Shown here piece by piece: positions 25,708 to 49,770 of a DNA stretch of 64,000 nt (within the stretch, counting starts at the first letter, position 1; every line of letters starts with the position of its first letter). The notes beneath the pieces were generated by a model. The model was not told the origin of the DNA, searched no databases, and saw only the letters and a list, made by a program, of their open reading frames with translations. Made by a program: the position numbers and the translations under genes. The DNA comes from an uncultured Gemmatimonadota bacterium (lineage in GTDB: Bacteria > JAAXHH01), in contig OX638340.1 in NCBI GenBank assembly GCA_951812955.1, forward strand, positions 2,208,001 to 2,272,000, read 5' to 3'.

Positions 25708-25746
25708 ATTCCAATCGAAGTGCTTTATTGTAGAAAGGAGCAAAGC

Positions 25747-26457
25747 ATGCGGTCCATTTTCGTCGGTATCGAGTACGCCGGCAAATCCACCCTCATCGAT
25801 CTGCTGGACGCCTATTACCAGAAACGGAGGCGCCGGACGCACCTGGATGATCATTTCACCATCCCGGACGCTTCACTGAGTCCCGTGTCCAGGGCTCAGT
25901 ACGTCCACTACCCCGACGACGTGAAAGAACGCATGCAGCGGATGCAACTGCACTACCACGTGGAGGTGATCCGCAACTACCCCCATACGCTGATCGCCGG
26001 CTGGCACATCGAGGAAGCCGTCTACTGCGACGTGTACGGCAACGTGGCGGGGAATCCCTATTACCCCAACTACATCCACAACAACCAGCGGCATTACGAG
26101 GTGCTGGTGCTGGAAGCCCGACTGCCCGACGTCGTGCTGATCCACCTCACGGCCGACGACGAGGCGATCCGGGAGCGCATGCGCACCGATCCCCACGAGT
26201 ACCAGATCATCGACGAGAAGGATGTACCGGATCTGAAGAAGCGCTTTGAGGACGAAGTCGACCGGTCGCTCCTGACGCGCAACGGCCACCTCATCACGCT
26301 GGATACGACCGAAAAGTCTCCAGAGGAATCGCTGGACGAATTGCTGCTCAAGACGGATCCGCTGGTGACCGACGGGGAACTGGCCATGCGGGCCATGCCG
26401 GTGCCCGAGGGAGATTACGAGGTACGGTACGAGAAGGGTGTGAGGACGTTGGTGTAA
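25747..26457 (+). CDS. P-loop NTPase, nucleoside/nucleotide-kinase-like hypothetical protein
   Basis: Walker A GIEYAGKST directly after Met at 25747 (ORF-track start 25720). No further assignment possible by eye. Confidence 0.45.
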   Translation: MRSIFVGIEYAGKSTLIDLLDAYYQKRRRRTHLDDHFTIPDASLSPVSRAQYVHYPDDVKERMQRMQLHYHVEVIRNYPHTLIAGWHIEEAVYCDVYGNVAGNPYYPNYIHNNQRHYEVLVLEARLPDVVLIHLTADDEAIRERMRTDPHEYQIIDEKDVPDLKKRFEDEVDRSLLTRNGHLITLDTTEKSPEESLDELLLKTDPLVTDGELAMRAMPVPEGDYEVRYEKGVRTLV

Positions 26458-26615
26458 ATGGACGGTGGCAAACACCTATTCAAGACTAAATTGAGTCTGG
26501 ATACTAGATTGCCGACTCGTTTTTCGACTGTATTATAATAGCAGCGGCCATCGACCAGATCGGCTTTCTCAATACATGTTGTCAGTAAGGACTTCGGTTC
26601 TAACTGGACCATCAT

Positions 26616-26855
26616 ATGGATAATCTGGCTTTGATAGTAGACTCGGTATCTACCATATGCCTCGTAGTCTTGGCAATCGTCACCCTGTCATGGAAGTTCT
26701 CACAAAGAAATCAGGGCGAGTTGCAGGAGGTACGTGATTCCATTAATGAAATCAAAAACGTACTGTTTGACATCAATGGCAGACTGGGACGAGTTGAAGG
26801 GCAGTTGGCTTCTGGCTTAGGTAGCAGCGAGGAGAAAATTAACAGTGACAAGTAG
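26616..26855 (+). CDS. small hypothetical protein (N-terminal TM helix plus coiled-coil-like tail) in low-GC islet
   Basis: 79 aa; overlaps the next ORF by 11 nt; region 26460-27236 is visibly AT-richer than its flanks. Confidence 0.3.
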   Translation: MDNLALIVDSVSTICLVVLAIVTLSWKFSQRNQGELQEVRDSINEIKNVLFDINGRLGRVEGQLASGLGSSEEKINSDK

Positions 26856-27120
26856 ATTGTCTTTAGAAGCTAAAACGCTGGTTCTGAAGGCCTTGCAAAC
26901 CGAAGATGGGCTGATTTTGACCGGGCAGACTTTCGGAGGTTGGTTCATTCAGACCGGTAACTGGAATACCGGGTTTGTGAAAGGACACGATGCGGCCAGA
27001 TGGAAAGACGCACTGGAAACGTTGTATTTAAACCAGTTTATCAAACTTACCGGCGTCCACCTGTATGAACTCACATCCAATGGCCGGCAGTTGAGCAATT
27101 CTCTCAGTGCCGAAGATTAG
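26845..27120 (+). CDS. small hypothetical protein in low-GC islet
   Basis: 91 aa; soluble; no recognisable motif. Confidence 0.3.
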   Translation: MTSRLSLEAKTLVLKALQTEDGLILTGQTFGGWFIQTGNWNTGFVKGHDAARWKDALETLYLNQFIKLTGVHLYELTSNGRQLSNSLSAED

Positions 27121-27236
27121 CATCTACCCTCAATAGGGCCCCGGGCAGAAGTCCGGGGCTTTTCCATTCTGGGTGGTGATTCAGGGCTATATCCAATTTA
27201 ACTAATACAATCCGATTGATCTAGCTTGTCGGGTTT

Positions 27237-28376
27237 CTAAGCCGCCATTTCCTTGCCCTGAGCTTCCCTTATGCACTCCGCGAGAATGGGTATGCCATCG
27301 CGGATATCCTCAATCGTGGGGAAACCGTACGCGATGCGCAGGTAGGGAATATCCTCTCCCAGGGCGCTGAATCCCTGCCCCGGCGTGTAGTAGACGTCGC
27401 GGCTTGCCGCCAGTTGGTGGGCCTTGCGCGTGTCCGTCGCCGATGGGATCCGTACCCACACGAACATGCCGCCGGGCGGATCCGTCCACCAGACCTCATC
27501 GCCCAACGCGCCGAAGTGGGCCTCCAGCGATTCGACGACCGCGTCCTTGCGCGCTTTCATGACGCGGTTCACTTCTGCGATGTGGTCCCATAGATGCTCG
27601 CCGAAGTATTCCGCTACGATCATGCTCGCCAGGGCGTTCGTCCCTCCGTCCATCTTGTTGGCCATGATCCGCTGCTGCAACGCCTCCGGGGCCATGAAAT
27701 AACCCTGCCTCACGCCTGGTCCGAGTATCTTGGAGAAAGAACCGACGTAAACGACCCGTTCGTCTTCGTCCAGATGATACAGGTTCGGCGGCACCGGATC
27801 GGACTGGAACACGATGTCCCCGTAGCAGTGGTCGTCCACGACCGGCGTATCAAACTCGCGAGCCAATTCGAGCAGGCGTTCCCGCCGTTCCAGCGGCATG
27901 ATAGAGCCCGTTGGATTGTGATGGGTGGGGATGGTGTAGATGAACTTCGGCGGCGTTCCCGCGTCGACAAGACCCTGCAATACGGTCTCCAGTTCGTCCG
28001 TGACCAGTCCCTGTTCGTCGAGCGGCGCAGGCACGATGCGCACCTGCCTGCTGCGAAACACACTCAACGAGCCGCCGTAAGAAAAGGATTCCGTGACGAT
28101 CGTGTCTCCGGGTGACGCGAAGGCGTCCGTGATCAACTGCAGCGCCTGCATCGAACCAGAGGTTAAAACGATCTCTTCCAGGGGCACCGCTCGTCCAGTG
28201 CCGCGCGCGAATCGCTGCGAAGCGATGGCTCTCAACGGTTCGTATCCCCGGCCGTCCGGGTAGTTTACCAGTTCCGAGCCGCGTGCGGCAATGACCTTTG
28301 CCGCGGCCTCGGCCAGCGCATCTGACGGGAAGGACAGGGGGTCGGGCCGTCCGGCGCCTAGATTGATCTCACGCAT
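27237..28376 (-). CDS. PLP-dependent aminotransferase, class I/II
   Basis: 379 aa. Schiff-base lysine context SFSKILGPGVR and the HNPTG motif. Confidence 0.8.
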   Translation of the reverse strand: MREINLGAGRPDPLSFPSDALAEAAAKVIAARGSELVNYPDGRGYEPLRAIASQRFARGTGRAVPLEEIVLTSGSMQALQLITDAFASPGDTIVTESFSYGGSLSVFRSRQVRIVPAPLDEQGLVTDELETVLQGLVDAGTPPKFIYTIPTHHNPTGSIMPLERRERLLELAREFDTPVVDDHCYGDIVFQSDPVPPNLYHLDEDERVVYVGSFSKILGPGVRQGYFMAPEALQQRIMANKMDGGTNALASMIVAEYFGEHLWDHIAEVNRVMKARKDAVVESLEAHFGALGDEVWWTDPPGGMFVWVRIPSATDTRKAHQLAASRDVYYTPGQGFSALGEDIPYLRIAYGFPTIEDIRDGIPILAECIREAQGKEMAA

Positions 28377-28507
28377 CGATTTGCTCCTGCAGAACTTGGA
28401 TGTATTAGTATCGGTTTTTTGCTGCTAAATACAATCAGGATATCTCACCAACTAGATGGTGTTACAGTCTCAGTGTTTAATGGTAATGGAGAACTGCACT
28501 GTCTTTG

Positions 28508-29152
28508 TCACCTACGTGATCGCGATGGTACTGAACAATGATCATCCAATATTTTAACAAGAGACATACAAACACTTCTCATCTGACTAATCGCACTACT
28601 TATCTCTGATCGAGTATATCTGCGTCCGATATTCTCCGGTGGTTCTCGACCATGGGCAATAGCATTTCTGTGTGCGACCACTTCGTCTATTCGATTTCTA
28701 TGTTTTCGTCGGCGTACAGGCATCCGCCGAATACCAAAAACCCCAAAAATAAATCGCAGATGCGAGTATCTATAATGTGTTCCGTCGGTAGGTGGTTTGA
28801 TATTACTGGACAGATCAGGCTTTTGATCTGAAAATGCACGTTCAAATACTTTAACTCGATTTAACCATTCCTTACTTCGCGACCCGTCCCGCAATGATTT
28901 CAATTCTGGATCCAAGTAAATAGCCATTAGTGTAGGCAACAGATCTTTCATCATGTGTTTGTGGTTTTTAATCGCTTCTACTGCCCCAATCACTGCGTTA
29001 TTCACAGTGTATTCGTAGACAGCGTAAGTCTGCACAAACAAAAGCCCCTTGGCAACGACTGCTTGGTGTTCTTCCAGCTTCCTTGTCGCCTTCCAAAATT
29101 GCTCAATTGATAAAAACCGAGTTTCAATTTCTGTCTTAAGTGCTGGGAACAT
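28508..29152 (-). CDS. HEPN-domain protein (MAE_28990/MAE_18760-like), predicted RNase partner of DUF262
   Basis: 214 aa. Rx4H HEPN motif in VVAHRNAIAHGREP. Overlaps the upstream DUF262 gene by 17 nt. Lies in the AT-rich islet. Confidence 0.55.
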   Translation of the reverse strand: MFPALKTEIETRFLSIEQFWKATRKLEEHQAVVAKGLLFVQTYAVYEYTVNNAVIGAVEAIKNHKHMMKDLLPTLMAIYLDPELKSLRDGSRSKEWLNRVKVFERAFSDQKPDLSSNIKPPTDGTHYRYSHLRFIFGVFGIRRMPVRRRKHRNRIDEVVAHRNAIAHGREPPENIGRRYTRSEISSAISQMRSVCMSLVKILDDHCSVPSRSRR

Positions 29153-30215
29153 ACACTCTTCCTAAGAATCGATCTCGGCAGAACTCTATACGACCCTTCA
29201 CAGCTCTCAAACTATTTGTCGCGCCTGTGGTGAATCCTCTGAGTTCGTCCGAGTTCATCCAAGTAGAAATGTCTGTTGTGTCCAGTTTAGCATGTTCTTT
29301 TAATGCTAGTGATGCTCCTACGGCTATTGCCTCATAGAGATTCAATGGCGTTAAGCCCTTCCGACCAGGACGCCTTATACCTTCTGGGAAAGTTTGGGCT
29401 AGTTTTTGAAAAACCGTTCGAAACTCTTTTTCTTTGGTAATGTAGTCAAAGTGATTGCTCGCATCCTTCATGTAATCCGTTAAAAACTCCTCAACACTGT
29501 GTTCAAAGTTATTGTATCGATCCAAATACGCAAAATAACGAAGCACACATTCTTCTAAAGTTCCATCATTCCTGTTTCCTTTTGAAAGTTTTACGACCTT
29601 TTGGAAGTCATCAGTTTTTGCCAACTCATCTAGTTTGTCAGCAAACTTTCCTTGGTACACGCAGTCCCGTATTTCTTGGTTCGTTAGCAAAACACCGCCG
29701 GTGTTCAAGCGCTCAAAAAGATCAAACCGTATTACTTTGTCACTCTTATCGTTCAGGGTAACAACTCTTAAAGGTCTAGTCTTCACATGTTGTTGAATTG
29801 TTGTAGGAAAGGTACCATATGTCAAATTGTTGAAATTACTTAGTTTCTTCAGCCCTTTTAATACTAGCTTCTCACCCAAGCCAAATTGATTACGCAGTTC
29901 TTCATCGCCAGCAAACTTGACTATTGCACTCAAACGTTGAACTCCATCAACAGCTTCCCACGTGAAATCGTCATTTGTTGCCATAAAAAGATTGGGAATC
30001 GGTATTCCAAGCATGAGCGATTCTACGAGTCGAGAACAGCGTTCATCATTCCAGCGAAATTGCCGTTGGTATGAAGGTGCAACTGATATCTGTCCTTCCT
30101 TTAGCATGCTCAATAGTTCTTGGAGTTGGATGTCGAAAGTATCGAAATCCACTGTTCGTCGTTGAGTTGCCAGTTGATCAGTAAGGTCTTGCGGTATTTC
30201 GATAGGAATTTGCAC
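29136..30215 (-). CDS. DUF262 (ParB-like nuclease/NTPase domain, GmrSD N-terminal-type) protein
   Basis: 359 aa. DUF262 signatures APSYQRQFRW and AVDGVQRL (DGxQR). There is no C-terminal DUF1524/HNH half as in full GmrSD. Confidence 0.65.
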   Translation of the reverse strand: MQIPIEIPQDLTDQLATQRRTVDFDTFDIQLQELLSMLKEGQISVAPSYQRQFRWNDERCSRLVESLMLGIPIPNLFMATNDDFTWEAVDGVQRLSAIVKFAGDEELRNQFGLGEKLVLKGLKKLSNFNNLTYGTFPTTIQQHVKTRPLRVVTLNDKSDKVIRFDLFERLNTGGVLLTNQEIRDCVYQGKFADKLDELAKTDDFQKVVKLSKGNRNDGTLEECVLRYFAYLDRYNNFEHSVEEFLTDYMKDASNHFDYITKEKEFRTVFQKLAQTFPEGIRRPGRKGLTPLNLYEAIAVGASLALKEHAKLDTTDISTWMNSDELRGFTTGATNSLRAVKGRIEFCRDRFLGRVYVPST

Positions 30216-30706
30216 TTCACCCTCCTACGATCCGGCTTTCAATCAAGTTCCGATTAGCGAGACAATCTTGTTACGAACCAAGATGATAAAGGCTGCCAGT
30301 GCTAGTTAAACTCTAACATGTTCTTGGTAGGTAAAATATGCGCTAATAAGCCTCTCTGATTTGCCAATCTCATAAACTCATATACTTAAGCCGTAGAATT
30401 GCTAATGTGAATTATGTGTGAAACTGTGCAAGATTGAGGTACTCGATTACCGTGTAAGTTTTGGACGACACGGTGCCAGTTGGTTCATTCTCCTACAGTT
30501 ACTACAAATGCCGTGTAACTCGACCAGACAGCCAATGTAGAGCGGCCTTCCCATGCCTGTCAACCGCTTATGCACGGACGCGGGGCGTCTTCAACCGTAT
30601 ACGAGGCGCATTCAGCCGGATAAGTGGGCGCCGTTGACAGGATGCATGACCCTTTCTACATTGGTCCTACCGGTACCAGCAACTGAATCTCTCCATCATA
30701 TCGCCC

Positions 30707-36469: not shown

Positions 36470-37483
36470 TCAGTCGTCATCGTCGTCATCTTTATCATCG
36501 TCGTCATCGTCATCGTCGTCATCGTCGTCATCATCATCGCCGTCGCCATCCCCGTCACCATCCCCGTCGCCATCGCCATCGCCATCGCCGTCACCATCGC
36601 CGTCGCCATCCCCGTCTCCATCACCATCACCGTCGCCATCTCCATCACCATCGCCGTCACCGTCGCCATCCCCATCGCCGTCCCCATCTCCATCGCCGTC
36701 GCCGTTACCTCCAGAGTTCCCACTGGGCGGTGGACTTAACTCTTCATCGCCGTCGCCATCCCCATCGCCGTCTCCATCACCACTGGGCGGTGGACTTAAC
36801 ACTTCGTCACCGTCGCCATCCCCGTCGCCATCCCCGTCTCCATCACCGTCGCCATCCCCGTCTCCATCACCGTCGCCATCGCCATCCCCATCGCCATCGC
36901 CATCACCGTCGCCATCGCCATCCCCATCGCCATCGCCGTCACCATCCCCATCACCATCACCGTCGCCATCACCGTCGCCATCCCCGTCCCCATCTCCGTC
37001 GCCATCCCCGGCCCCGTCCCCATCGCCATCGCCGTCACCATCGCCGTCGCCATCCCCGTCTCCATCACCGTCCCCATCACCGTCGCCATCCCCGTCCCCA
37101 TCACCATCACCGTCACCATCGCCGTCACCGTCACCATCGCCGTCCCCATCGCCACCATTTGAACTTGTGGTATTTGTTACCACACTTGCGTTGTCCTCGT
37201 TATTGCTACCTGCATCCCCGTTCCCATCCCCATTTCCGTTCCTATCTCCATTTCCGTCACCATCTCCATCTCCATCGCCATCTCCGTCCCCGTCGCCGTC
37301 CCCATCGCCGCTGCCACCCGGACTCTGAGCACTCCCCACCTGATTCGCACTCGTGGCGAATCCAGACCCTGATCCCATGGGGTTCAGATCGTTGTCCCCT
37401 CTGCAACCCAGGATCATGAGCAACGAAGCGACAGTCAGTTGCATTCTTCGCAACCATTGCATAATGGTTCGGCACAAGGCCAT
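36470..37483 (-). CDS. predicted lipoprotein composed almost entirely of (Gly-Asp)n dipeptide repeats, ending in poly-Asp
   Basis: 337 aa. N-terminus MALCRTIMQWLRRMQLTVASLLMILGC (signal plus lipobox-like ILGC). Then GDGDGD... for most of its length, with two EVLSPPPSG / EELSPPPSG spacers and a ~20-residue Asp tail. Wobble asymmetry supports this strand: the Asp codons are always GAY while the Gly codons use all four third bases. Confidence 0.6.
   Translation of the reverse strand: MALCRTIMQWLRRMQLTVASLLMILGCRGDNDLNPMGSGSGFATSANQVGSAQSPGGSGDGDGDGDGDGDGDGDGDGNGDRNGNGDGNGDAGSNNEDNASVVTNTTSSNGGDGDGDGDGDGDGDGDGDGDGDGDGDGDGDGDGDGDGDGDGDGDGDGAGDGDGDGDGDGDGDGDGDGDGDGDGDGDGDGDGDGDGDGDGDGDGDGDGDGDGDGDGDGDGDGDGDGDEVLSPPPSGDGDGDGDGDGDEELSPPPSGNSGGNGDGDGDGDGDGDGDGDGDGDGDGDGDGDGDGDGDGDGDGDGDGDGDGDGDGDGDGDDDDDDDDDDDDDDDKDDDDDD
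36480..37320. repeat. ~840-bp hexanucleotide-periodic microsatellite-like repeat (GGN GAY)n with all six frames open
   Basis: Plus strand reads (TCN CCR)n = SPSPSP. Minus strand reads GDGDGD. The ORF track shows overlapping ORFs in every frame across this interval. A 27-bp element CCACTGGGCGGTGGACTTAAC(T/A)CTTC occurs twice inside. Confidence 0.85.
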
Positions 37484-42380: not shown

Positions 42381-43136
42381 ATGACTCCCCACGAAAGATA
42401 CCTCTTCGACCTGCAGGGTTTTATCGAGGTCCCGGACGCGTTGGACGCCGGGCAGCTCGCAGAACTGAACGGCATACTGGACGAGAAGATCGACGGGGCC
42501 ATGGCACCCGGCGCCACCACCCACCGATTCGGCTTCACCCTGCTCGACTGGGGACCAACCTACCGGGAACTGATCGACAATCCGCGGATAGATCCTTATC
42601 TGGAACAACTGATCGGTCCGAAGTACCGGCTGGACCACGATTATGCCGATATCATCCGAAAAGGCGACGGTCCAATCGGCACGACCCTCCACGGAGGCGC
42701 CATCCCCTTCGACCCCCTCTACTCCTACACCTGCACCAACGAAGAGATCCGTTGCGGCCTGACTGTGGTCGCCTACTACCTGAAGGACGTAAATCCAGGC
42801 GACGGCGGATTCGGCTGCGTGCCCGGCAGCCATAAGAGCAACTTCCGGTTCCCGGACGAGTGGCGCAACCTCAAGACCGACCAGCCCTTCATCCGCGCCG
42901 TAACCGGCAAGGCCGGCACCGCCGTCATATTCACCGAGGCCCTGACCCACGGCACCATGCCCTGGCACGGTGACGAGCGCCGCACCCTCTTCTACAAGTA
43001 CTCGCCCAATTCGATATCCTGGTACGCGGAATACTATGACGCCGACCGGTACGAAGGTCTGACGGAACGGCAGCAGGAGATCCTTGAGGCACCGAACGCG
43101 CGGTATGGAGAACGGTCTAAGCGTGGGGTTGTGTAG
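42381..43136 (+). CDS. phytanoyl-CoA dioxygenase (PhyH) family Fe(II)/2OG oxygenase
   Basis: 251 aa. ERYLFDLQGFIEVPDAL start; GSHK and the distal His (ALTHGTMPWHGD). Confidence 0.7.
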   Translation: MTPHERYLFDLQGFIEVPDALDAGQLAELNGILDEKIDGAMAPGATTHRFGFTLLDWGPTYRELIDNPRIDPYLEQLIGPKYRLDHDYADIIRKGDGPIGTTLHGGAIPFDPLYSYTCTNEEIRCGLTVVAYYLKDVNPGDGGFGCVPGSHKSNFRFPDEWRNLKTDQPFIRAVTGKAGTAVIFTEALTHGTMPWHGDERRTLFYKYSPNSISWYAEYYDADRYEGLTERQQEILEAPNARYGERSKRGVV

Positions 43137-43505
43137 GTGGGCTTTACGGATAGACCAGTTGATATTACGACCACATTTATTTGCTCATTGATTTACTGTA
43201 TCTCGAGGTTACAAATGGACGTTAAGGAAGCCGTAAGTACGGCCATAAAACATATTGCAGATGTATACTCGGAAGAGGGAATCTCGCATATTGGATTAGA
43301 AGAGGTAGAATACGACGAGATTAACTCACAATGGAACGTGACCGTTGGATTTGCACGTAAGTGGGACTTCCCTACTCCGGTTCTTATCCCCGTATTACCT
43401 TCACCAAGACCAAACCAAAGAACCTACAAAATCGTAGTAATTCGTGATAGAGACAAGAAGGTCACCGCAATGAAGATAAGGGATTTAGCTACGTCGAATG
43501 AATAG
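43137..43505 (+). CDS. hypothetical small protein, candidate antitoxin of the downstream PIN toxin
   Basis: Overlaps the PIN gene by 8 nt. First gene of the AT-rich island. Start ambiguous (GTG 43137 or ATG ~43215). No recognisable antitoxin fold by eye. Confidence 0.35.
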   Translation: MGFTDRPVDITTTFICSLIYCISRLQMDVKEAVSTAIKHIADVYSEEGISHIGLEEVEYDEINSQWNVTVGFARKWDFPTPVLIPVLPSPRPNQRTYKIVVIRDRDKKVTAMKIRDLATSNE

Positions 43506-43968
43506 TGTGCTTATAGATACGAATCTACTTGTCCTTTTGGTTGTAGGATCTACCGATAGAGAGTTTATTAGTCGACATAAACGCACAAAATCGTTCATAC
43601 CCAGAGACTATGACGAACTGACACGTCTGTTGTCGGGATCTCGTGAGTTATGGGTTACTTCTCACTGTCTGGCAGAGACATCGAATCTTCTGAAGCAAAC
43701 CGATAAAACAAAAGCACAGATCTTGTTACATACTCTTGCGGCCTACTGCGATATTGCCCGCGAATCGCATATTCCCAAAGAGACGGTATTTGGATACGAG
43801 AACTACCGCAGACTTGGCGTCACCGACACCGGCTTCATATACTCATCCGAAACAGTCTCTCGATCTATAACAGTAGATTTCAACTTGTACATCGAACTGA
43901 GTAACCTTGGCAGAGAAGTGATAAACTTCCACCACATCCGTGCTTCGTATCTCCAGAATGTCGATTGA
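43498..43968 (+). CDS. PIN-domain protein (VapC-like toxin)
   Basis: 156 aa. N-terminal LIDTNLLVLLVVG with the first acidic residue, plus later conserved acidic positions typical of PIN. Confidence 0.55.
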   Translation: MNSVLIDTNLLVLLVVGSTDREFISRHKRTKSFIPRDYDELTRLLSGSRELWVTSHCLAETSNLLKQTDKTKAQILLHTLAAYCDIARESHIPKETVFGYENYRRLGVTDTGFIYSSETVSRSITVDFNLYIELSNLGREVINFHHIRASYLQNVD

Positions 43969-44089
43969 CACGACGATCACACAGTTTTGCACATTCCAGT
44001 GCTTAGTTTTTGGTCAAGACCAACCTGTAGTTAAAACCAACCAATGGCCCTGAAGAAATCCCAAAATTTGGTAAACACTGCCAGGAGAG

Positions 44090-45034
44090 ATGCCACCTAT
44101 GCTTGACGAATTGGTTGGATGTATCGATGAACTTAAAGATCGTATTTCCAAATACCGAAACTCACTAAATGAGAACGAAACTCGTACTCGAATGCAGTTA
44201 ATAGATCCGCTGCTTCGTGTGCTGGGCTGGGACGTCTCCGATCCACGGTACGTTATCCCAGAATTCAAGGTGTCCGATGGTTGGGCTGACTATGCCTTAT
44301 TGCGGGATGATGGTAAGCCTGCTGCTATGGTGGAAGCTAAAAAACTGGACGAACCGTTAAAGCCCGCACACCGTGCTCAGATGTTGAAATACGCAATTGA
44401 GTTGGGTATCCCATACACTGGTTTGACAGATGGAAATCACTGGGAGTTGTACAATGTTTTCCAACCGGTACCTATGGAGGACAAACAGATCTTGGATGTT
44501 ACTTTATTGGATTCCCACTCCCACGAAAGTGCACTAAAGTTACTGCTGCTCTGGAATCCAAATCTAGACGCCGGCAGCGCGGTGAAAGCAAATGAACCTG
44601 TTCTCGTCGACACTCAGAATGGCGGTTCGATTCCTCCAATAATCGTTCCGCCACCATCGAACTGGAAGGCACTTTCAGATTACGAACCACCAGCAGGAAC
44701 ACCCGCACCTAAGGCTATTAGGCTTTGGGATGACTCAGAAAGAGAAGTGCATCATTGGTATGAAATTCTCACCATAGTAGCCGAAAAGCTCTACAACGAA
44801 AATGTCCTTACATTGGAACATATACCGATTCAATGGGCTAAAAAGACCTATAGTATTCACTCTCAACCAGTACATCCGACCGGCAACAAGTTTGAAAATC
44901 ATAAAGAAATCGGTAACTCGGGATTGTTCGTAAACGTAAATTTAAATACCGGTCAAGTACGAAATAACACCCGGAATCTACTGAAGAAATACAACATTGG
45001 TACAGAGAAGGTTTACCTCAAGGTAGCCGATTAG
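44090..45034 (+). CDS. HsdR_N-like PD-(D/E)xK nuclease-domain protein with uncharacterised C-terminal domain
   Basis: 314 aa. N-terminal NENETRTRMQLIDPLLRVLGW ... DYALLRDDGKPAAMVEAKKL is the type-I-restriction R-subunit N-terminal nuclease signature (D...EAK). The C-terminal ~160 aa match nothing I recognise. Confidence 0.55.
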   Translation: MPPMLDELVGCIDELKDRISKYRNSLNENETRTRMQLIDPLLRVLGWDVSDPRYVIPEFKVSDGWADYALLRDDGKPAAMVEAKKLDEPLKPAHRAQMLKYAIELGIPYTGLTDGNHWELYNVFQPVPMEDKQILDVTLLDSHSHESALKLLLLWNPNLDAGSAVKANEPVLVDTQNGGSIPPIIVPPPSNWKALSDYEPPAGTPAPKAIRLWDDSEREVHHWYEILTIVAEKLYNENVLTLEHIPIQWAKKTYSIHSQPVHPTGNKFENHKEIGNSGLFVNVNLNTGQVRNNTRNLLKKYNIGTEKVYLKVAD

Positions 45035-45444
45035 GTAGTTTCGTTGACCTACCATGTTGAGGAGTGATATTTCTTGATCTCCACAGACAAGGTTAAGGGT
45101 AAACCACAGCATACCTCCTCACTATCAGGCACGGTTCCTCAGTACGTTGAAGCGATATCAGCAACTCGCTAGCTAGCAGCTACCTGCCCCGTCGCATGGA
45201 ATACTGGGTACAAACCGTCTTTCACTTTAGTGGCGATTTGTTCACGGCTCCGTTCGTCAAATACAATTGAGCCCACTAATTCCACCTGTTTACCTCGACA
45301 AACAAGAGTACAGATCAATCACTTCGTATGACAAAACTCATTCAACTTCTATTCGAAATTGGAATCGGTGACCACCACTCAACCTCTGAATCGTGTGAGA
45401 CTGATGAAGATTCGCTGGTACATGGAAAGGATAATGGAGTGTAA

Positions 45445-47622
45445 TTGATGAATTCAACGTCTGAAGAAACCACCACCCGTCCCTGTTGGTTTGTGGGCGC
45501 CAGTTATTCTGGTACGGGCGATCAAACTGAGCGATTTCTCACGGAAGGTATCTGGGAGAACGGCTTCGACAACGATCATCCGGCCGTCGCGATGACCAAA
45601 ACCATTCAGCCCGGAGACCCAATCGCGATCAAGTCCGCCTACGTTCGCAAACACGACCTACCTTTTGACAGTCGCAACCAGTTCGTATCCGTAATGGCGA
45701 TCAAGGCCATCGGGACGGTTTTAGAGAACATCGGTGATGGCCATACCGTTAAGGTTAAATGGAATAAGGAGGTAACTCCGCGAGAATGGTATTTCTTTAC
45801 TAACAGAGGTACAGTTTGGAAAGTATCGCCTGGTAGTGACTGGTATTCCGACGCCCTGATCGGATTCGCGTTCGAGAACAAGCCGCAGGATATCGATCGT
45901 TTCTTAAAAGTGCCGTATTGGAGGGAGAGGTATCGAGGAGACACGCTCAATGATCAACGGTTTGCGTGGACGAGGTTCTACGAGGCCTTTGCGGATAAGC
46001 TGCTCACATATAGGAACAAGCGCTTAGACTTAATAAATGGTATACAAGAAATAGCTGCCAGAGAGTATGCCATGTTGGTTCTGAGGGATCAGTTTCGGGA
46101 CGGTACGATCGGTCCACTCAAAGACATATGCCCATTTACTACCATCGGATTGTTCAATAAGGGAATAACGAATAGCAATCGAAGATCAATTGCATCAGAA
46201 CTCGCTGAATTGCTGGGAGTGTCAGAGTCGGTTCCGGATTCATTCGATGGAATACCTGTTCTCAACAATCAGAATTCCTGGTTTTTTTCGTATGAAAAAA
46301 ACCGACGACCGGAAGATATTGAAATCCTTTGGAATGTTTACTCCCGTGCAATTGCCTTCGCTGATTCAGATGATTCCGATGCGCGATCTGCTTTCGTCTC
46401 TGCTTACGACGACGCATCCGAGGTTTCTCACGTAGGTTGGAAACTTACATTTGGGCTGTATTGGATACGGCCTTGGGATTTCCCCGTCCTCGACACGAAT
46501 ACCCGGCGTTACCTGGACAAGAAACTCAATATTGAGATCGGACTAAATGGACCGAAAAGGGGATACTGTAGTGCGAACGACTACCTGACGGTCCATGACA
46601 CACTTGAAAAGAGGTTTCTGGAGGACACATATCCGGTTCGTTCTTTTCCAGAACTAGCACGCGAAGCCTGGTTGTATAAGCCCGGTGACCCGGATCCCCC
46701 GCCAGATAGCGGTCTGGATCCCCCGCCACCACCTGTCCCTTATTCACTCGATGATATCGTGAAAGACGGCTGTTTCATTGCCAGAGATAAACTCGAGTCG
46801 ATACTCAATCGACTCCGTACCAAGAAAAACCTCATTCTACAAGGCCCTCCAGGAACCGGGAAGACTTGGCTCGCCAGGAAGTTGGCCTACGCTTTGATCT
46901 GTGAGCGAGACGAAAGCAAGGTTCGTTCGGTACAGTTCCATCCCAATCTCTCTTACGAAGATTTCGTACGTGGTTGGCGGCCGGCGGGAGATGGTAAACT
47001 TACGCTCGTAGATGGCCCCTTCATCGCCATAAGGGACGAGGCCGAAAAAGATCCTACTACTCGATACGTCTTGGTCATCGAAGAGATCAACCGGGGCAAT
47101 CCCGCACAGATTTTCGGCGAGATGCTGACATTGTTGGAGACCGACAAGCGAACTCCAGACGAAGCCTTGGAATTGGTTTATTCAAAGACTCCGGATGAGC
47201 GATTCTTTGTTCCTAACAATCTGTTTGTCATCGGGACGATGAACATTGCTGATCGTTCACTGGCACTTGTAGACCTGGCATTACGCCGTAGATTTGCATT
47301 TATCGATCTGGAACCTACCCTTGGCAAGACTTGGCGAGACTGGGTCCATTCTAAAAACGGGATAGATAACGAGACTCTCACCGAAATTGAGCATCGTATA
47401 GATGATCTGAACCGGACGATCTCCAATGATTCCGGTCTTGGCTCGCAATTTCGCTTGGGGCACAGTTATGTGACGCCGCCGTTTGAACAGCCGATTAAAG
47501 ATGGGAGAAAGTGGTACAGGGAAGTCGTTGAAACGGAAATTGGACCACTACTCGACGAATACTGGTTCGAAGACCTCGCGAAATCTAGAAACGCAAAAAA
47601 GAAACTTTTGGATGGTTTTTAG
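45445..47622 (+). CDS. mcrB: McrB-family GTPase (AAA+), with ~440-aa uncharacterised N-terminal region
   Basis: 725 aa. Walker A LILQGPPGTGKTW. McrB signature VLVIEEINRGNPAQIFGEMLTLLE. FVIGTMNIADRS. Confidence 0.85.
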   Translation: MMNSTSEETTTRPCWFVGASYSGTGDQTERFLTEGIWENGFDNDHPAVAMTKTIQPGDPIAIKSAYVRKHDLPFDSRNQFVSVMAIKAIGTVLENIGDGHTVKVKWNKEVTPREWYFFTNRGTVWKVSPGSDWYSDALIGFAFENKPQDIDRFLKVPYWRERYRGDTLNDQRFAWTRFYEAFADKLLTYRNKRLDLINGIQEIAAREYAMLVLRDQFRDGTIGPLKDICPFTTIGLFNKGITNSNRRSIASELAELLGVSESVPDSFDGIPVLNNQNSWFFSYEKNRRPEDIEILWNVYSRAIAFADSDDSDARSAFVSAYDDASEVSHVGWKLTFGLYWIRPWDFPVLDTNTRRYLDKKLNIEIGLNGPKRGYCSANDYLTVHDTLEKRFLEDTYPVRSFPELAREAWLYKPGDPDPPPDSGLDPPPPPVPYSLDDIVKDGCFIARDKLESILNRLRTKKNLILQGPPGTGKTWLARKLAYALICERDESKVRSVQFHPNLSYEDFVRGWRPAGDGKLTLVDGPFIAIRDEAEKDPTTRYVLVIEEINRGNPAQIFGEMLTLLETDKRTPDEALELVYSKTPDERFFVPNNLFVIGTMNIADRSLALVDLALRRRFAFIDLEPTLGKTWRDWVHSKNGIDNETLTEIEHRIDDLNRTISNDSGLGSQFRLGHSYVTPPFEQPIKDGRKWYREVVETEIGPLLDEYWFEDLAKSRNAKKKLLDGF

Positions 47623-48743
47623 TGGTGAATGGCCCAGTAGTTAGTACGGCTGACGAGACGATCGAACAGGCCGGGTATATCGGTCGTATCCCTTTACGAA
47701 ATATCTGGCTGCTCATGCTTTACGCCTCTGACCTTTTCAGGCAACTTGATGCGTCTGAATACCGCTCCTTCGAAGATAATCCTGATGACCTGCCCGATCT
47801 GGTTGCCGAGATCCTATCACATGAAGTCGAACGTCGACTAAAGCGAAATCTGAGTTACGGCTACCAATACCGTAACGAAGTGCTCGGACGGGTTCGCGGA
47901 CGTATCGACCTTTTACAAACCGAAGCTCATCAACTACTGCAACGCGGCATGGTCGCCTGTCGATTCGACGAACTGACAATCGACACACCGAGGAACAGGT
48001 ACGTTCGATCCGCCCTCGAGATGATATCCAAATATGTTCGTCGAAAAGACCTGGCTCACCAGTGCAGGTCCCTCGTTGGAAGCCTTAGGCGACAGGGAGT
48101 CGTTGGAGAACGACCTGGGCGTGAGGTGACGTCAGTTGAGCGATACGGTAGACATGACGCTGTTGACCGCAAGATGGTGGATGCGGCTCGTCTTGCCTTC
48201 GAAATGGCCATTCCGACCGAGCAGACCGGTTCCAGGCACCTTCCACTACCGGACCGTGATATAAACTGGATTCGCAGACTCTATGAGAAAGGCGTTGCAG
48301 GATTCTATGATGTGGTACTTTCCAGAAGGGGATGGAATGTGTATCCGGGAACGATTCTCAGATGGCCCACGACAGTCAGAAGTCCGCGAATAGACGGGAT
48401 ACTACCCTCCATGCGGACCGATATTGTGTTGGATCATGTTGACGAAGGCCGACGGATCGTTATAGACACGAAATTCAACTCGGTTTTGTCGAGAGGTTGG
48501 TATCGAAATGAAGGGATACGAAGCGGATACATGTACCAGATCTATGCTTACCTTAGGTCGCAGGAAGAGAGTGGTGATCCGCTTGATTGTAATGCAGAGG
48601 GAATGTTTCTCCATCCGTCGGTTGGTGAGATGTTCAACGAATGGGTAGATATTCAGGGTCATCGGATCCACTTCAATACCGTTGATCTCGCAACCGATAC
48701 ACAGACCATCAGATCGCAGTTGTTGGATGCGGTGAAACCTTAA
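47622..48743 (+). CDS. mcrC: McrC-family PD-(D/E)xK nuclease subunit
   Basis: 373 aa. GTG start overlaps the mcrB stop by 1 nt. C-terminal nuclease region DIVLDHVDEGRRIVIDTKFN. Confidence 0.75.
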   Translation: MVNGPVVSTADETIEQAGYIGRIPLRNIWLLMLYASDLFRQLDASEYRSFEDNPDDLPDLVAEILSHEVERRLKRNLSYGYQYRNEVLGRVRGRIDLLQTEAHQLLQRGMVACRFDELTIDTPRNRYVRSALEMISKYVRRKDLAHQCRSLVGSLRRQGVVGERPGREVTSVERYGRHDAVDRKMVDAARLAFEMAIPTEQTGSRHLPLPDRDINWIRRLYEKGVAGFYDVVLSRRGWNVYPGTILRWPTTVRSPRIDGILPSMRTDIVLDHVDEGRRIVIDTKFNSVLSRGWYRNEGIRSGYMYQIYAYLRSQEESGDPLDCNAEGMFLHPSVGEMFNEWVDIQGHRIHFNTVDLATDTQTIRSQLLDAVKP

Positions 48744-48834
48744 ACTGACTTTGCTCTCGACATAGTCGTTCCACCAGCCCATTTCCCGCATCCGTTTGGT
48801 GTGTTCGGCAGCTTCGGTAATCTCAAGATTTGAC

Positions 48835-49761
48835 TCACCCCGCCTTCCTGAAGACCTCGAAACGACGGTCCAGCCGGTCCTGGTCCGGATGGTCACGGGT
48901 GCGTGAAGGCAGGTGCAGTCCCGATCCGTCCAGTTGCTTGAGGGCCTGGAGCATGGGACCGTCATCCTTGTCCAGCAGGCGGTCGGATACGTGCAGCCGG
49001 TAGTCGGGATCAATGCCGATCAGGTGGGCGTCAAAGGCCGCATGATGAATCTTGGACAGGGCCAAGCCGTTGGGTACGACGGGTTGTCCCAATGCCTCGT
49101 CGCCATCGGCAATGATGTGGGCGGCATCCAGTAACTGCGTTTCCGGTAGGCCGGTAATGGCACAGCGGCCGCGATAGGCGTGAAGGACAGCCTCGCGGAA
49201 CGTGGCTTGGTGGAGTCGTTCCTTGACCATGCGCAGGGCATACCGCCGCTCTACCGCGTTAATCGGAGCTTCCATCTCGGCCTGGTTGGGGTTCCCAAAG
49301 GCAAGCGTGGACTTGAGCGCGAATCCATCCCAATTGGAGATGAAGGTGGGAATGATCGCCTGATACCGGCTGGGAGACACACCGAGAAAGTAGATCACGG
49401 GAATCTGATTCTCCCAGGCAACCTTTAACCACTGGTTGTCTGCTGCTGCCGGGTCCTGTCCCATGAAGGCGTAGTCCACGGAATCGTTGCCCTCGAAAAT
49501 CTGGCTGTGGACCTGCTTTTGGTCGTCGTACCAGACTCGGCCGCCCGGTCTGGGGTACACGGTCCTGATCGAGAGAAGGTACCGCATCCGGCGCGGCTTG
49601 AATATGCCCCGCTGCGGATTGACAAGGGGGATCCTTTCGCCTTCGAATACGAACCCCGGCGCCAGTTCGTCCCTCGTAAGGTGGCCATGGGTTTCACTCA
49701 GCCGCCGCACGTGATCGAACGCGGCCATCCGCATCCTCGGATCTCGGTCGTCGACGTTCAT
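48835..49761 (-). CDS. HNH endonuclease with N-terminal putative DNA-reader domain
   Basis: 308 aa. C-terminal HNH_2-type motif LLDAAHIIADGDEALGQPVVPNGLALSKIHHAAFD. The N-terminal ~200 aa are uncharacterised. Confidence 0.6.
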   Translation of the reverse strand: MNVDDRDPRMRMAAFDHVRRLSETHGHLTRDELAPGFVFEGERIPLVNPQRGIFKPRRMRYLLSIRTVYPRPGGRVWYDDQKQVHSQIFEGNDSVDYAFMGQDPAAADNQWLKVAWENQIPVIYFLGVSPSRYQAIIPTFISNWDGFALKSTLAFGNPNQAEMEAPINAVERRYALRMVKERLHQATFREAVLHAYRGRCAITGLPETQLLDAAHIIADGDEALGQPVVPNGLALSKIHHAAFDAHLIGIDPDYRLHVSDRLLDKDDGPMLQALKQLDGSGLHLPSRTRDHPDQDRLDRRFEVFRKAG

Positions 49762-49770
49762 CTCAGTCCT

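What the first reader, a model, noticed from the sequence alone, without database searches (positions are those of the whole stretch)
28380..30550. AT-rich islet carrying a DUF262 (ParB-like) + HEPN two-gene module: candidate uncharacterised defense system
Two overlapping minus-strand genes (17-nt overlap) sit in a stretch that is visibly lower in G+C than the flanking aminotransferase and ABC operon. The upstream protein has the DUF262 signatures (YQRQFRW, DGVQRL) found in the N-terminal half of the type IV restriction enzyme GmrSD. It lacks the DUF1524/HNH half. The downstream 214-aa protein carries the HEPN Rx4H motif (AHRNAIAHG). DUF262-HEPN pairing has been noted in comparative genomics (MAE_18760/MAE_28990-type HEPN). 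To my knowledge it has no experimentally established function. It could act as a split GmrSD-like system with an RNase effector, or as an abortive-infection module.
Basis: partly seen in the sequence, partly recalled or inferred. Interest (0 to 1): 0.75.

Follow-up and report, generated by a model that had tools for sequence, protein, structure and literature searches.

The report
DUF262–HEPN anti-phage cassette, PD-T4-2-like
A 2.1-kb low-G+C insert carries two coupled genes, a ParB-like DNA/NTP-binding protein and a HEPN RNase, that form a horizontally exchanged cassette of the same kind as the validated E. coli anti-phage system PD-T4-2, so it is real and probably a defence system but not a new kind of system.

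Summary

PD-T4-2 (Vassallo 2022) is a DUF262 + HEPN (PF18735/PF18737) pair that protects E. coli against T4, and that paper made a HEPN His mutant (H127A).

I recovered true PD-T4-2 from E. coli. Window A is 29% identical to PD-T4-2A (E 3e-35). Window B shares only the RNxxAH motif with PD-T4-2B and fails the PADLOC B models. I therefore file this as a sister variant, not a strict member.

The A-B pair is kept in 81 of 82 genomic loci spanning many phyla. It is always lower in G+C than its flanks, and it also occurs on viral contigs.

In close relatives the same slot is empty, holds a native decarboxylase gene, or carries a divergent allele. Cassette and flank relationships disagree, which indicates horizontal exchange.

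The mechanism (DNA sensing by A, RNase activation of B) is inferred, not shown.

The parts
28394..30533 (-). Inserted low-G+C cassette: leader, gene A, gene B and a 3' tail
   Evidence: An empty-site relative (L089) has 60 nt where the window has 2140 nt. Homology blocks end at window 30534 and resume at 28393. G+C is 0.39-0.43 against about 0.60 in the flanks.
30534..30563 (-). Sigma-70-like promoter TTGACA-18-TACATT in native high-G+C DNA, directly upstream of the insert
   Evidence: Consensus scan, 10 of 12 matches. The element is conserved in L001 and in the empty-site relative L089, where it lies about 75 nt upstream of the aminotransferase ATG. Its function is inferred, not shown.
30216..30533 (-). 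318-nt AT-rich leader of the cassette, ending in the Shine-Dalgarno AGGAGG (30221-30226)
   Evidence: Sequence read directly. No tandem repeats, no unusual RNA fold (z = 0.5) and no Rfam match. Poorly conserved against the allele in L001.
29136..30215 (-). Gene A: ParB-like DUF262 NTPase/DNA-binding protein, 359 aa, with a C-terminal helical domain and no DUF1524/HNH
30051..30068 (-). A motif I, QRxxxW (Q50-W55, in YQRQFRW)
   Evidence: Q50, R51 and W55 are invariant in 81 of 81 family members. This motif was not used as a retrieval pattern for those loci.
29934..29948 (-). A motif II, DGxQR (D90-R94), the predicted NTP-binding and hydrolysis motif of DUF262
   Evidence: D, G, Q and R are invariant in 81 of 81 members. 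The role of the motif is taken from the literature on GmrSD, BrxU, SspE and HEC-06.
29703..29717 (-). A motif III, FxxxN (F167-N171, in DLFERLNTGG)
   Evidence: Invariant in the family. This stretch was one of the retrieval patterns, so its invariance among those loci is partly by construction.
29136..29152 (-). 17-nt overlap between the end of A and the start of B (ATGTTCCCAGCACTTAA), suggesting translational coupling
   Evidence: A and B abut or overlap in 81 of 82 related loci.
28508..29152 (-). Gene B: stand-alone HEPN protein, 214 aa, predicted RNase
28652..28669 (-). B catalytic HEPN motif Rx4H (R162-N-A-I-A-H167)
   Evidence: R162 and H167 are present in 80 of 81 family members, the one exception being an alignment gap. 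The equivalent His of PD-T4-2B (H127, in RNAAAH) was mutated in PMC9519451.
28394..28507 (-). 114-nt 3' tail of the cassette, with no recognisable terminator
   Evidence: No terminator-like site on the minus strand here. The RNA fold is no better than shuffles (z = 0.04).
27237..28376 (-). Host aminotransferase gene directly downstream, probably co-transcribed. The cassette sits between this gene's presumed promoter and its ribosome-binding site.
   Evidence: Pfam PF00155 at 1e-35. Empty-site comparison. 88-92% amino-acid identity to relatives both with and without the cassette.

Best explanation
The region is a horizontally exchanged two-gene anti-phage cassette of the DUF262 + HEPN type. It is a distant relative and functional analogue of E. 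coli PD-T4-2.

Shown here:
- A is a ParB/sulfiredoxin-fold DUF262 protein with intact QRxxxW, DGxQR and FxxxN motifs and a C-terminal helical domain like that of NsnA.
- B is a HEPN-fold protein with an intact Rx4H motif.
- The two genes are translationally coupled, strictly co-inherited and co-evolving.
- Both are under purifying selection.
- The cassette is accessory and moves between lineages.

Inferred mechanism:
- A, probably as a dimer, binds DNA and NTP. It recognises a feature of invading phage DNA, such as a base modification or a replication or injection intermediate.
- Its NTP-dependent conformational switch releases or activates the B dimer.
- The composite Rx4H site of B then cleaves RNA (tRNA, rRNA or mRNA) and stops translation. 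This blocks phage production, most likely at the cost of the infected cell (abortive infection).

In this genome the cassette lies in the 5' untranslated region of an aminotransferase gene. It is probably transcribed from that gene's promoter.
For: Domains and folds.

Homology of A to validated PD-T4-2A: 29% identity, E 3e-35. The identity of my PD-T4-2 reference was checked with PADLOC, at 538 bits for A and 213 bits for B.

PD-T4-2 is a DUF262 + HEPN pair whose B hits PF18735 and PF18737 by HHpred. It was selected on T4, and its native deletion sensitises ECOR65. An H127A mutant of B was made.

The pair is kept in 81 of 82 genome loci across Proteobacteria, Acidobacteria, Planctomycetes, Verrucomicrobia, Bacteroidetes, Firmicutes, Actinobacteria and others, and in 29 of 35 viral-contig loci. 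Pairwise identities of A and B correlate at r = 0.84.

Catalytic motifs are invariant or nearly so. dN/dS is 0.07 for A and 0.155 for B.

Module G+C is below its flanks in 79 of 79 loci.

The slot is polymorphic in close relatives: empty in L089, a native decarboxylase in L087 and L088, allele 1 in the window and L090, and allele 2 in L001 and L002.

Phylogenetic discordance: L090 and L001 have nearly identical flanks (dS 0.01-0.15) but cassette dS of 1.4-1.6. The window and L090 have cassette dS of about 0.2 but flank dS of 0.47-0.75. The switch falls exactly at the cassette edge.

The 146 immediate neighbours across these loci include integrases, IS transposases, restriction enzymes and methyltransferases.
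Against: There is no phenotype for this subfamily.

B is not detectably related to PD-T4-2B beyond the RNxxAH motif: BLASTP E 0.89, profile-profile probability 0.5%, and no hit to the PADLOC PD-T4-2_B models. Extrapolation from PD-T4-2 therefore rests on A and on shared Pfam membership.

The mechanism of PD-T4-2 itself is unknown. The text I could read does not say whether it acts by abortive infection or direct immunity.

A, the putative sensor, is much more conserved than B, the putative effector (mean pairwise identity 54% against 29%). That is the opposite of the usual pattern for sensors of variable phage proteins.

Defence genes among immediate neighbours are a minority.

The AlphaFold model of A is only moderate (pLDDT 75.5).

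The promoter assignment is a consensus match only.
Confidence: 0.72

Rival explanations
1. Restriction-like dual-nuclease model. A is itself a ParB-type DNase or nickase that attacks phage DNA, possibly modified DNA, in an NTP-dependent way, like a type IV enzyme. B is an independent second-line RNase rather than an effector controlled by A.
For: Anantharaman et al. 2013 treat ParB domains in these operons as DNases. They propose HEPN as a back-up arm attached to R-M-like systems (PMC3710099). The closest structural matches of A are the type IV enzymes BrxU and SspE. The very high conservation of A fits an enzyme that acts on an invariant substrate such as DNA.
Against: In GmrSD, BrxU and SspE the cutting is assigned to the DUF1524 His-Me domain, and DUF262 acts as the NTPase/sensor. 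A has no DUF1524 or other nuclease domain. Strict pairing, gene overlap and co-evolution with B suggest a physical partnership rather than two independent arms.
Confidence: 0.15
2. Toxin-antitoxin or addiction module. B is a HEPN RNase toxin held in check by A as a protein antitoxin. The main role is to stabilise mobile elements or genomic islets, with phage defence incidental at most.
Against: The relative PD-T4-2 gives phage protection both when cloned and in its native strain. The putative antitoxin A is large (359 aa) and has conserved NTPase and DNA-binding motifs, which a simple neutraliser would not need. The cassette here is chromosomal, with no mobility genes to stabilise, and empty sites persist in relatives.
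Confidence: 0.1
3. A housekeeping or regulatory function tied to the downstream aminotransferase, since the genes appear to share a transcription unit.
For: The cassette lies between the conserved promoter and the aminotransferase start, and no terminator is detectable after B.
Against: Close relatives keep the aminotransferase without the cassette (L089, L087). The same A-B pair sits next to unrelated genes in about 80 other genomes. G+C and codon usage are foreign. Cassette and flank phylogenies disagree.
Confidence: 0.02

Closest known systems
PD-T4-2 (Vassallo et al. 2022, E. coli ECOR65; PADLOC PD-T4-2_A/B)
   Same: It is a two-gene operon in the same order. It starts with a DUF262 protein of about 360 aa that lacks DUF1524. 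This is followed at once by a small stand-alone HEPN protein whose best Pfam matches are PF18735 and PF18737. The active-site motif is RNxxAH. It is accessory and mobile: PD-T4-2 sits in a P4-like satellite hotspot in 17 of 5426 E. coli genomes. The A proteins are homologous, at 29% identity and E 3e-35.
   Different: B here is 214 aa against 167 aa. It has no significant sequence or profile similarity to PD-T4-2B outside the motif and does not hit any PADLOC PD-T4-2_B model. A scores higher on the NsnA model than on the PD-T4-2_A model. This clade is far more widespread and more conserved. No phenotype is known for it.
Menshen NsnA (NsnABC; Millman 2022; Li et al. 2025)
   Same: A matches the NsnA model over nearly its full length, at 7e-63. 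It has the same ParB-DUF262 plus C-terminal helical ('ParBDB') layout, with QRxxxW, DGxQR and FxxxN motifs.
   Different: There is no NsnB ATPase and no NsnC inPIN-nuclease effector. The only partner gene is a HEPN protein.
GmrSD / BrxU / SspE type IV restriction enzymes
   Different: A has no DUF1524 His-Me nuclease domain. The putative effector is a separate RNase-type protein, so the target is probably RNA and not modified DNA.
ParB + MAE_28990 / RiboL-PSP HEPN operons described by comparative genomics (Anantharaman et al. 2013)
   Same: This is exactly the association the window shows. [quoted passage not shown]
   Different: That paper was descriptive only. No methylase gene accompanies the pair in the window. 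Across the other loci, DNA methylase (PF01555) was found in only 2 of the 146 immediate neighbours.
HEPN-MNT and related HEPN toxin-antitoxin pairs
   Same: The closest solved folds of B are HEPN toxins of these pairs, SO_3166, 7ae2 and 8xdj. They are also small two-gene modules.
   Different: The partner here is a ParB-like DUF262 protein, not a minimal nucleotidyltransferase. No AMPylation partner is present.
PD-lambda-5 (ParB/HEPN fusion + methyltransferase, Vassallo 2022)
   Same: It combines ParB-like and HEPN modules in a validated defence system.
   Different: There the two modules are listed as 'ParB/HEPN' and come with a methyltransferase. Here they are separate genes with no methylase. 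I did not compare the sequences.

Membership tests
PD-T4-2 (sensu PADLOC / Vassallo 2022) | Component A: DUF262 protein matching the PD-T4-2_A model | tested here: met
   PD-T4-2_A at 1.5e-47, residues 33-321 against profile 42-327 of 363. The score is 160 bits, against 538 bits for a true member. 29% identical to true PD-T4-2A.
PD-T4-2 (sensu PADLOC / Vassallo 2022) | Component B: HEPN protein matching a PD-T4-2_B model | tested here: not met
   No PD-T4-2_B hit at E <= 1 for window B, nor for the 13 partner-HEPN proteins of related pairs that I scanned. True PD-T4-2B scores 213 bits. BLASTP E 0.89. hhalign profile-profile probability 0.5%.
PD-T4-2 (sensu PADLOC / Vassallo 2022) | Architecture: A directly followed by a stand-alone HEPN of the Pfam PF18735/PF18737 type with Rx4H | tested here: met
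   Window B hits PF18737 at 8e-10 and PF18735 at 3e-9. PD-T4-2B hits the same two families by HHpred, and its 99%-identical cluster carries a precomputed PF18735 hit. The gene order and adjacency are the same.
PD-T4-2 (sensu PADLOC / Vassallo 2022) | Protection against phage that depends on the HEPN His | not testable with these tools
   This needs cloning and phage challenge.
Menshen (NsnABC) | NsnA-like ParB-DUF262 + ParBDB protein | tested here: met
   NsnA at 7.2e-63, residues 19-346 against profile 41-375 of 385.
Menshen (NsnABC) | NsnB ATPase gene downstream of NsnA | tested here: not met
   The downstream gene is the 214-aa HEPN protein, and the next gene is an aminotransferase. The same holds in 81 of 82 related loci.
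Menshen (NsnABC) | NsnC effector (inactive PIN + nuclease) | tested here: not met
   No such gene lies in or next to the cassette.
GmrSD-family type IV restriction enzyme | DUF262 N-terminal domain | tested here: met
GmrSD-family type IV restriction enzyme | DUF1524 His-Me/HNH nuclease domain, fused or adjacent | tested here: not met
   There is no DUF1524 hit in A, in B or in the neighbours. A ends at residue 359 with a helical domain.
HEPN superfamily RNase | HEPN four-helix fold | tested here: met
HEPN superfamily RNase | Conserved Rx4-6H motif | tested here: met
   R162-N-A-I-A-H167. R and H are present in 80 of 81 family members.
HEPN superfamily RNase | RNA cleavage activity | not testable with these tools
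   This needs a biochemical assay.
HEPN-MNT toxin-antitoxin | Adjacent minimal nucleotidyltransferase antitoxin | tested here: not met
   The partner gene is DUF262. No nucleotidyltransferase domain was detected.
Type III (RNA antitoxin) HEPN/AbiF-like system | Tandem-repeat RNA antitoxin upstream of the toxin gene | tested here: not met
   The leader has no tandem repeats and no unusual fold, and there is no Rfam hit.

The most novel reading that the evidence does not exclude
This could be a distinct, very widespread and unusually conserved clade of ParB-like/HEPN systems. The scan found relatives in at least 229 species genomes. The B family has 600 cluster representatives at E <= 1e-10. A is at least 49% identical across phyla.

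Current detection models miss this clade.

The highly conserved ParB-like NTPase may read an invariant nucleic-acid cue rather than a phage protein. It may then license a fast-evolving HEPN RNase directly. That would be a DNA-to-RNase signalling route with no second messenger and no nuclease domain on the sensor.

If so, working it out here would also explain PD-T4-2.
Probability: 0.3. Interest if true: 0.6.

Novelty: new variant of a known kind. Interest (0 to 1): 0.42.

Why it matters
DUF262 + HEPN pairs have one validated example, PD-T4-2, and none of the 8 papers in the searched library that mention it describes a mechanism. The clade found here is much larger and better conserved, and it spans most bacterial phyla as well as (pro)phage contigs. 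PADLOC's B models do not pick it up, so defence-system censuses probably undercount it.

The conservation pattern is unusual: a conserved ParB-like partner with a fast-evolving HEPN partner. Together with the clean natural experiment in this lineage, that makes it a tractable entry point for a mechanistic question. The natural experiment is that the same slot is empty, native-filled, or holds one of two divergent alleles. The question is how a ParB-fold NTPase controls an RNase.

For annotating this genome, the practical outcome is simple. The islet is a mobile defence cassette dropped into the 5' UTR of an aminotransferase gene.

Tried and rejected
- blastn of a Buttiauxella A-B pair against all complete E. 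coli genomes found nothing. PD-T4-2 was reached instead through the lambda-red primer sequence in Table S8 of PMC9519451.
- PADLOC scans of window B and of 13 partner-HEPN proteins from related pairs gave no PD-T4-2_B hit.
- I tried to link the two B families through intermediates (Salmonella IncX 180-aa HEPN, E. coli IncF 211-aa HEPN, P2-like phage 239-aa HEPN). The IncF and P2 proteins belong with the window family (1.8e-15 and 5e-11). None connects significantly to PD-T4-2B.
- An RNA antitoxin or riboregulator in the 318-nt leader was considered and rejected. There are no tandem repeats, no Rfam hit, the fold z-score is 0.5, and the leader is poorly conserved between alleles.
- No intrinsic terminator lies between B and the aminotransferase.
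- No direct or inverted repeats flank the insert as att or IS ends would.
- Exact look-up of window A found no record.
- The NCBIfam scan was uninformative.
- Sequence-profile search of the PDB gave only weak DUF262 and Csx1 hits.
- An s91 dN/dS value came from wrong coordinates and was discarded.
Full report
**1. The observation**

The region holds two minus-strand ORFs. A is 29136-30215 (359 aa) and B is 28508-29152 (214 aa). They overlap by 17 nt, ATGTTCCCAGCACTTAA. A starts at a GTG five bases after an AGGAGG box. A close relative has the same N-terminus, MQ(I/L)PIEIP.

G+C falls to 0.39-0.43 between about 28500 and 30500, against about 0.60 on either side. The kilobase 29001-30000 is the lowest in the 64-kb window. 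GC3 is 0.36-0.37 in A and B, against 0.76-0.85 in the aminotransferase and ABC genes.

**2. What the proteins are**

*Protein A.*
- It matches Pfam PF03235 (GmrSD_N/DUF262) at 2.3e-24 and has no DUF1524.
- In PADLOC it matches Menshen NsnA (7e-63) and PD-T4-2_A (1.5e-47) over most of the profile length. It matches SspE and the HEC-05/06 GmrSD-like models only at the N-terminal motif.
- The three DUF262 motifs described for NsnA and GmrSD are present: QRxxxW, DGxQR and FxxxN (PMC12065111). Motifs I and II are invariant in 81 of 81 family members.
- Motif III is invariant too, but it was one of the patterns used to retrieve those loci.

*Protein B.*
- It matches PF18737 HEPN_MAE_28990 (8e-10) and PF18735 HEPN_RiboL-PSP (3e-9) over its full length.
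- Its AlphaFold2 model is confident (pLDDT 94.4) and all-helical.
- Foldseek against the PDB was uninformative.
  - AF0298;
  - ST0689;
  - the AMPylated and MNT-bound HEPN toxins;
  - Csm6;
  - HI0074.
- The Rx4H motif R162-NAIA-H167 is kept in 80 of 81 members.

**3. What is already known**

- Anantharaman et al. [quoted passage not shown]
- Vassallo et al. 2022 isolated PD-T4-2 from E. coli ECOR65 by selection on T4.
- It is listed as "DUF262, HEPN" and as validated.
- HHpred gives PF03235 for A, and PF18735 (97.8%) and PF18737 (96.9%) for B.
- Deleting it in ECOR65 greatly increased T4 plaquing.
- A PD-T4-2B H127A plasmid exists.
- The paper states that the residues mutated in four systems were essential for protection.

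Only 8 papers in the library mention PD-T4-2 and none gives a mechanism. The text I could read does not say whether it acts by abortive infection.

**4. Direct comparison with true PD-T4-2**

I used the lambda-red primer from Table S8 as a 50-nt query and found PD-T4-2 in 17 of 5426 complete E. coli genomes. In strain 2009C-3133 it lies between psu and the integrase of a P4-like satellite, next to ssrA (L086). PADLOC confirms the identity, with A at 538 bits and B at 213 bits.

Window A is 29% identical to PD-T4-2A over 265 residues, E 3e-35.

Window B is similar to PD-T4-2B only at RNA(I/A)AH. BLASTP gives E 0.89. Profile-profile hhalign of a 25-sequence window-B alignment against a 26-sequence PD-T4-2B alignment gives probability 0.5%. 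HMM searches in both directions are non-significant.

The two B families are linked only through shared membership of Pfam PF18735 and through the fold.

Closer E. coli-world relatives of the window type do exist. An IncF plasmid pair has B at 1.8e-15 to the window-family HMM. A P2-like phage P24B2 pair has B at 5e-11. By the membership rule, I do not file the locus as PD-T4-2 in the strict sense. It has the same architecture and a homologous A, but a different HEPN subfamily.

**5. Distribution and coupling**

A pattern scan of one genome per GTDB species found 229 genomes with a relative. The top 80 have A at least 49% identical. They come from Alpha-, Gamma- and Deltaproteobacteria, Acidobacteria, Planctomycetes, Verrucomicrobia, Bacteroidetes, Firmicutes, Actinobacteria, Chloroflexi, Nitrospira and Entotheonella.

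In 81 of 82 loci A is followed at once by a B-family HEPN of about 214-225 aa. The exception is cut by a contig end.

Pairwise identities of A and B correlate at r = 0.84. B diverges about 1.5 times faster, with mean pairwise identity 29% against 54% for A.

The module is lower in G+C than its flanks in 79 of 79 loci, by a mean of 0.11. Its G+C still tracks host G+C at r = 0.87.

An exhaustive profile search gives 1271 B-family cluster representatives at E <= 0.001 and 600 at E <= 1e-10. The top 150 are mostly stand-alone proteins of about 215-225 aa, with some shorter ones.

Thirty-five IMG/VR contigs carry a relative. Twenty-nine show the intact pair, and most of the rest are cut by contig ends. 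One hundred and forty-three plasmids carry more distant relatives at 31-34% identity.

The 146 immediate neighbours include 5 integrases, several IS transposases, 3 XhoI-type restriction enzymes and 2 methyltransferases. Most neighbours are unrelated housekeeping genes. The pair therefore travels as a minimal two-gene cassette.

**6. The natural experiment in this lineage**

This is the most informative result. The aminotransferase downstream of B belongs to a 90%-identity cluster of 73 sequences from related genomes. At the slot between the ABC transporter gene and the aminotransferase I found four states:

| State of the slot | Loci |
|---|---|
| Empty | L089 |
| Native high-G+C PLP-decarboxylase gene (G+C 0.655) | L087, L088 |
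| A-B allele 1 | window, L090 |
| A-B allele 2 | L001, L002 |

Alignment to the empty site shows 60 nt in place of 2140 nt. This puts the insert at window 28394-30533.

The flanks of L090 and L001 are almost identical (dS 0.012-0.019, and 0.148 in the adjacent aminotransferase). Their cassettes are very different: A 78% and B 64% amino-acid identity, dS 1.4-1.6.

The window's flanks are more distant from both (dS 0.45-0.77). Yet its cassette is nearly the same as that of L090 (A 95%, B 94%, dS 0.19-0.22).

A sliding-window comparison shows the relationship switching exactly at the cassette edge. The cassette has therefore been exchanged horizontally, most simply by homologous recombination through the conserved flanks. 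Divergent alleles and empty sites coexist in one population-level slot.

The pair is syntenic in some close relatives but is not core.

Both genes are under purifying selection, with dN/dS of 0.07 for A and 0.155 for B.

**7. Local anatomy**

The left edge of the insert abuts a TTGACA-18-TACATT element at 30563-30534. This element lies in native high-G+C DNA and is conserved in L001 and in the empty-site genome, where it is about 75 nt upstream of the aminotransferase ATG. An inverted copy at 30634-30662 faces the ABC operon.

The right edge of the insert is just before the aminotransferase ribosome-binding site, CAGGAGCAAATCGATG. No terminator or stable hairpin follows B.

The cassette thus sits in the 5' UTR of the aminotransferase. 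It is probably transcribed from the host promoter, with read-through into the aminotransferase. This is an inference from consensus matches.

The 318-nt leader shows no repeats, no special fold, no Rfam hit and little conservation between alleles. I found no sign of an RNA antitoxin.

**8. Mechanism**

Shown: a ParB-fold DUF262 protein with intact NTP-binding motifs and a C-terminal helical domain, strictly coupled to a HEPN protein with an intact catalytic motif.

From the literature: in GmrSD, BrxU and SspE the DUF262 domain senses DNA features and uses NTP hydrolysis to switch on a nuclease. HEPN domains are typically RNases that act as dimers.

Inferred: A recognises a phage DNA cue and, through its NTP cycle, activates or releases B. 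B then cuts RNA and stops translation, which probably aborts the infection.

The high conservation of A fits an invariant nucleic-acid or nucleotide ligand better than a variable phage protein. The faster evolution of B may reflect phage inhibitors or target shifts.

Three rivals remain:
- A is itself a DNase and B is a back-up arm.
- The pair is a plain toxin-antitoxin addiction module.
- The pair has a role tied to the aminotransferase. This one is nearly excluded.

**9. Verdict**

This is a real, well-delimited, horizontally exchanged DUF262 + HEPN cassette. It is the same kind of system as PD-T4-2, with a homologous A and a HEPN partner from a different subfamily. I therefore class it as a new variant of a known kind.

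Interest is moderate. The kind is known and validated. Its mechanism is open, and this clade is large, conserved and missed by PADLOC's PD-T4-2_B models.

**Caveats**
- The genome scan was pattern-limited.
- Neighbour ORFs were called heuristically.
- Promoter and terminator calls are consensus matches.
- The source organism could not be named.

Noticed in passing
window 43100-49800: A second, larger low-G+C island (G+C 0.45-0.49). It holds a McrBC-type restriction pair: a 725-aa AAA_5 McrB-like protein at 45445-47622 and a 373-aa McrC at 47622-48743. It also holds a 314-aa protein with an HSDR_N/restriction-enzyme-like N-terminus (44090-45034), two unannotated small ORFs (43137-43968) and an HNH_2 protein (48835-49761, minus strand). 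The window therefore carries at least two defence islets.
   Followed up: partly
window 26400-27200: A small low-G+C islet (G+C 0.46-0.48) with two overlapping plus-strand ORFs of 79 aa (26616-26855) and 91 aa (26845-27120). Neither has a Pfam, PADLOC or NCBIfam match. Homologues at 66-69% identity are present in L001. A gene of about 90 aa of unknown function is called at the equivalent place in relatives that lack the A-B cassette (homology not checked). If it is the same gene, this islet is independent of A-B.
   Followed up: partly
window 36470-37483: A long hexanucleotide repeat gives extreme GC skew (-0.5). On the minus strand it encodes a 337-aa protein with a lipoprotein-like signal (…LMILGC) followed by hundreds of Gly-Asp repeats. 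The plus strand reads as Ser-Pro repeats.
   Followed up: no
window 30534-30662: Two TTGACA boxes in inverted orientation (CCTGTCAACCGC / GCCGTTGACAGG, 62 nt apart) form a divergent promoter-like pair between the ABC operon and the aminotransferase. The region is conserved in relatives with and without the cassette.
   Followed up: partly
L001 13045-15109 (and L002): The relative L001 has four extra genes of unknown function (135, 103, 159 and 289 aa, no Pfam hits). They lie between the P-loop kinase-like gene and the creatininase gene. They are absent from the window and from the otherwise nearly identical L090. This is a second variable slot only about 3 kb from the A-B slot.
   Followed up: no
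L086 (E. coli 2009C-3133 chromosome 3553868-3555503): True PD-T4-2 sits in the psu-int hotspot of a P4-like satellite integrated next to ssrA. It is present in only 17 of 5426 complete E. coli genomes. RefSeq now annotates its B gene, which had no protein ID in the original ECOR65 record, as 'HEPN domain-containing protein'.
   Followed up: yes
L087 4572-5960 and L088 3145-4533: In some relatives the slot that holds A-B in the window carries a native high-G+C PLP-dependent decarboxylase gene directly upstream of the aminotransferase. This suggests a decarboxylase-aminotransferase operon as one ancestral state of the site.
   Followed up: partly
window 25720-26457: A 245-aa P-loop protein with only weak AAA_18 and dTMP-kinase-like matches lies next to the small islet. 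It is 88% identical in L001.
   Followed up: no
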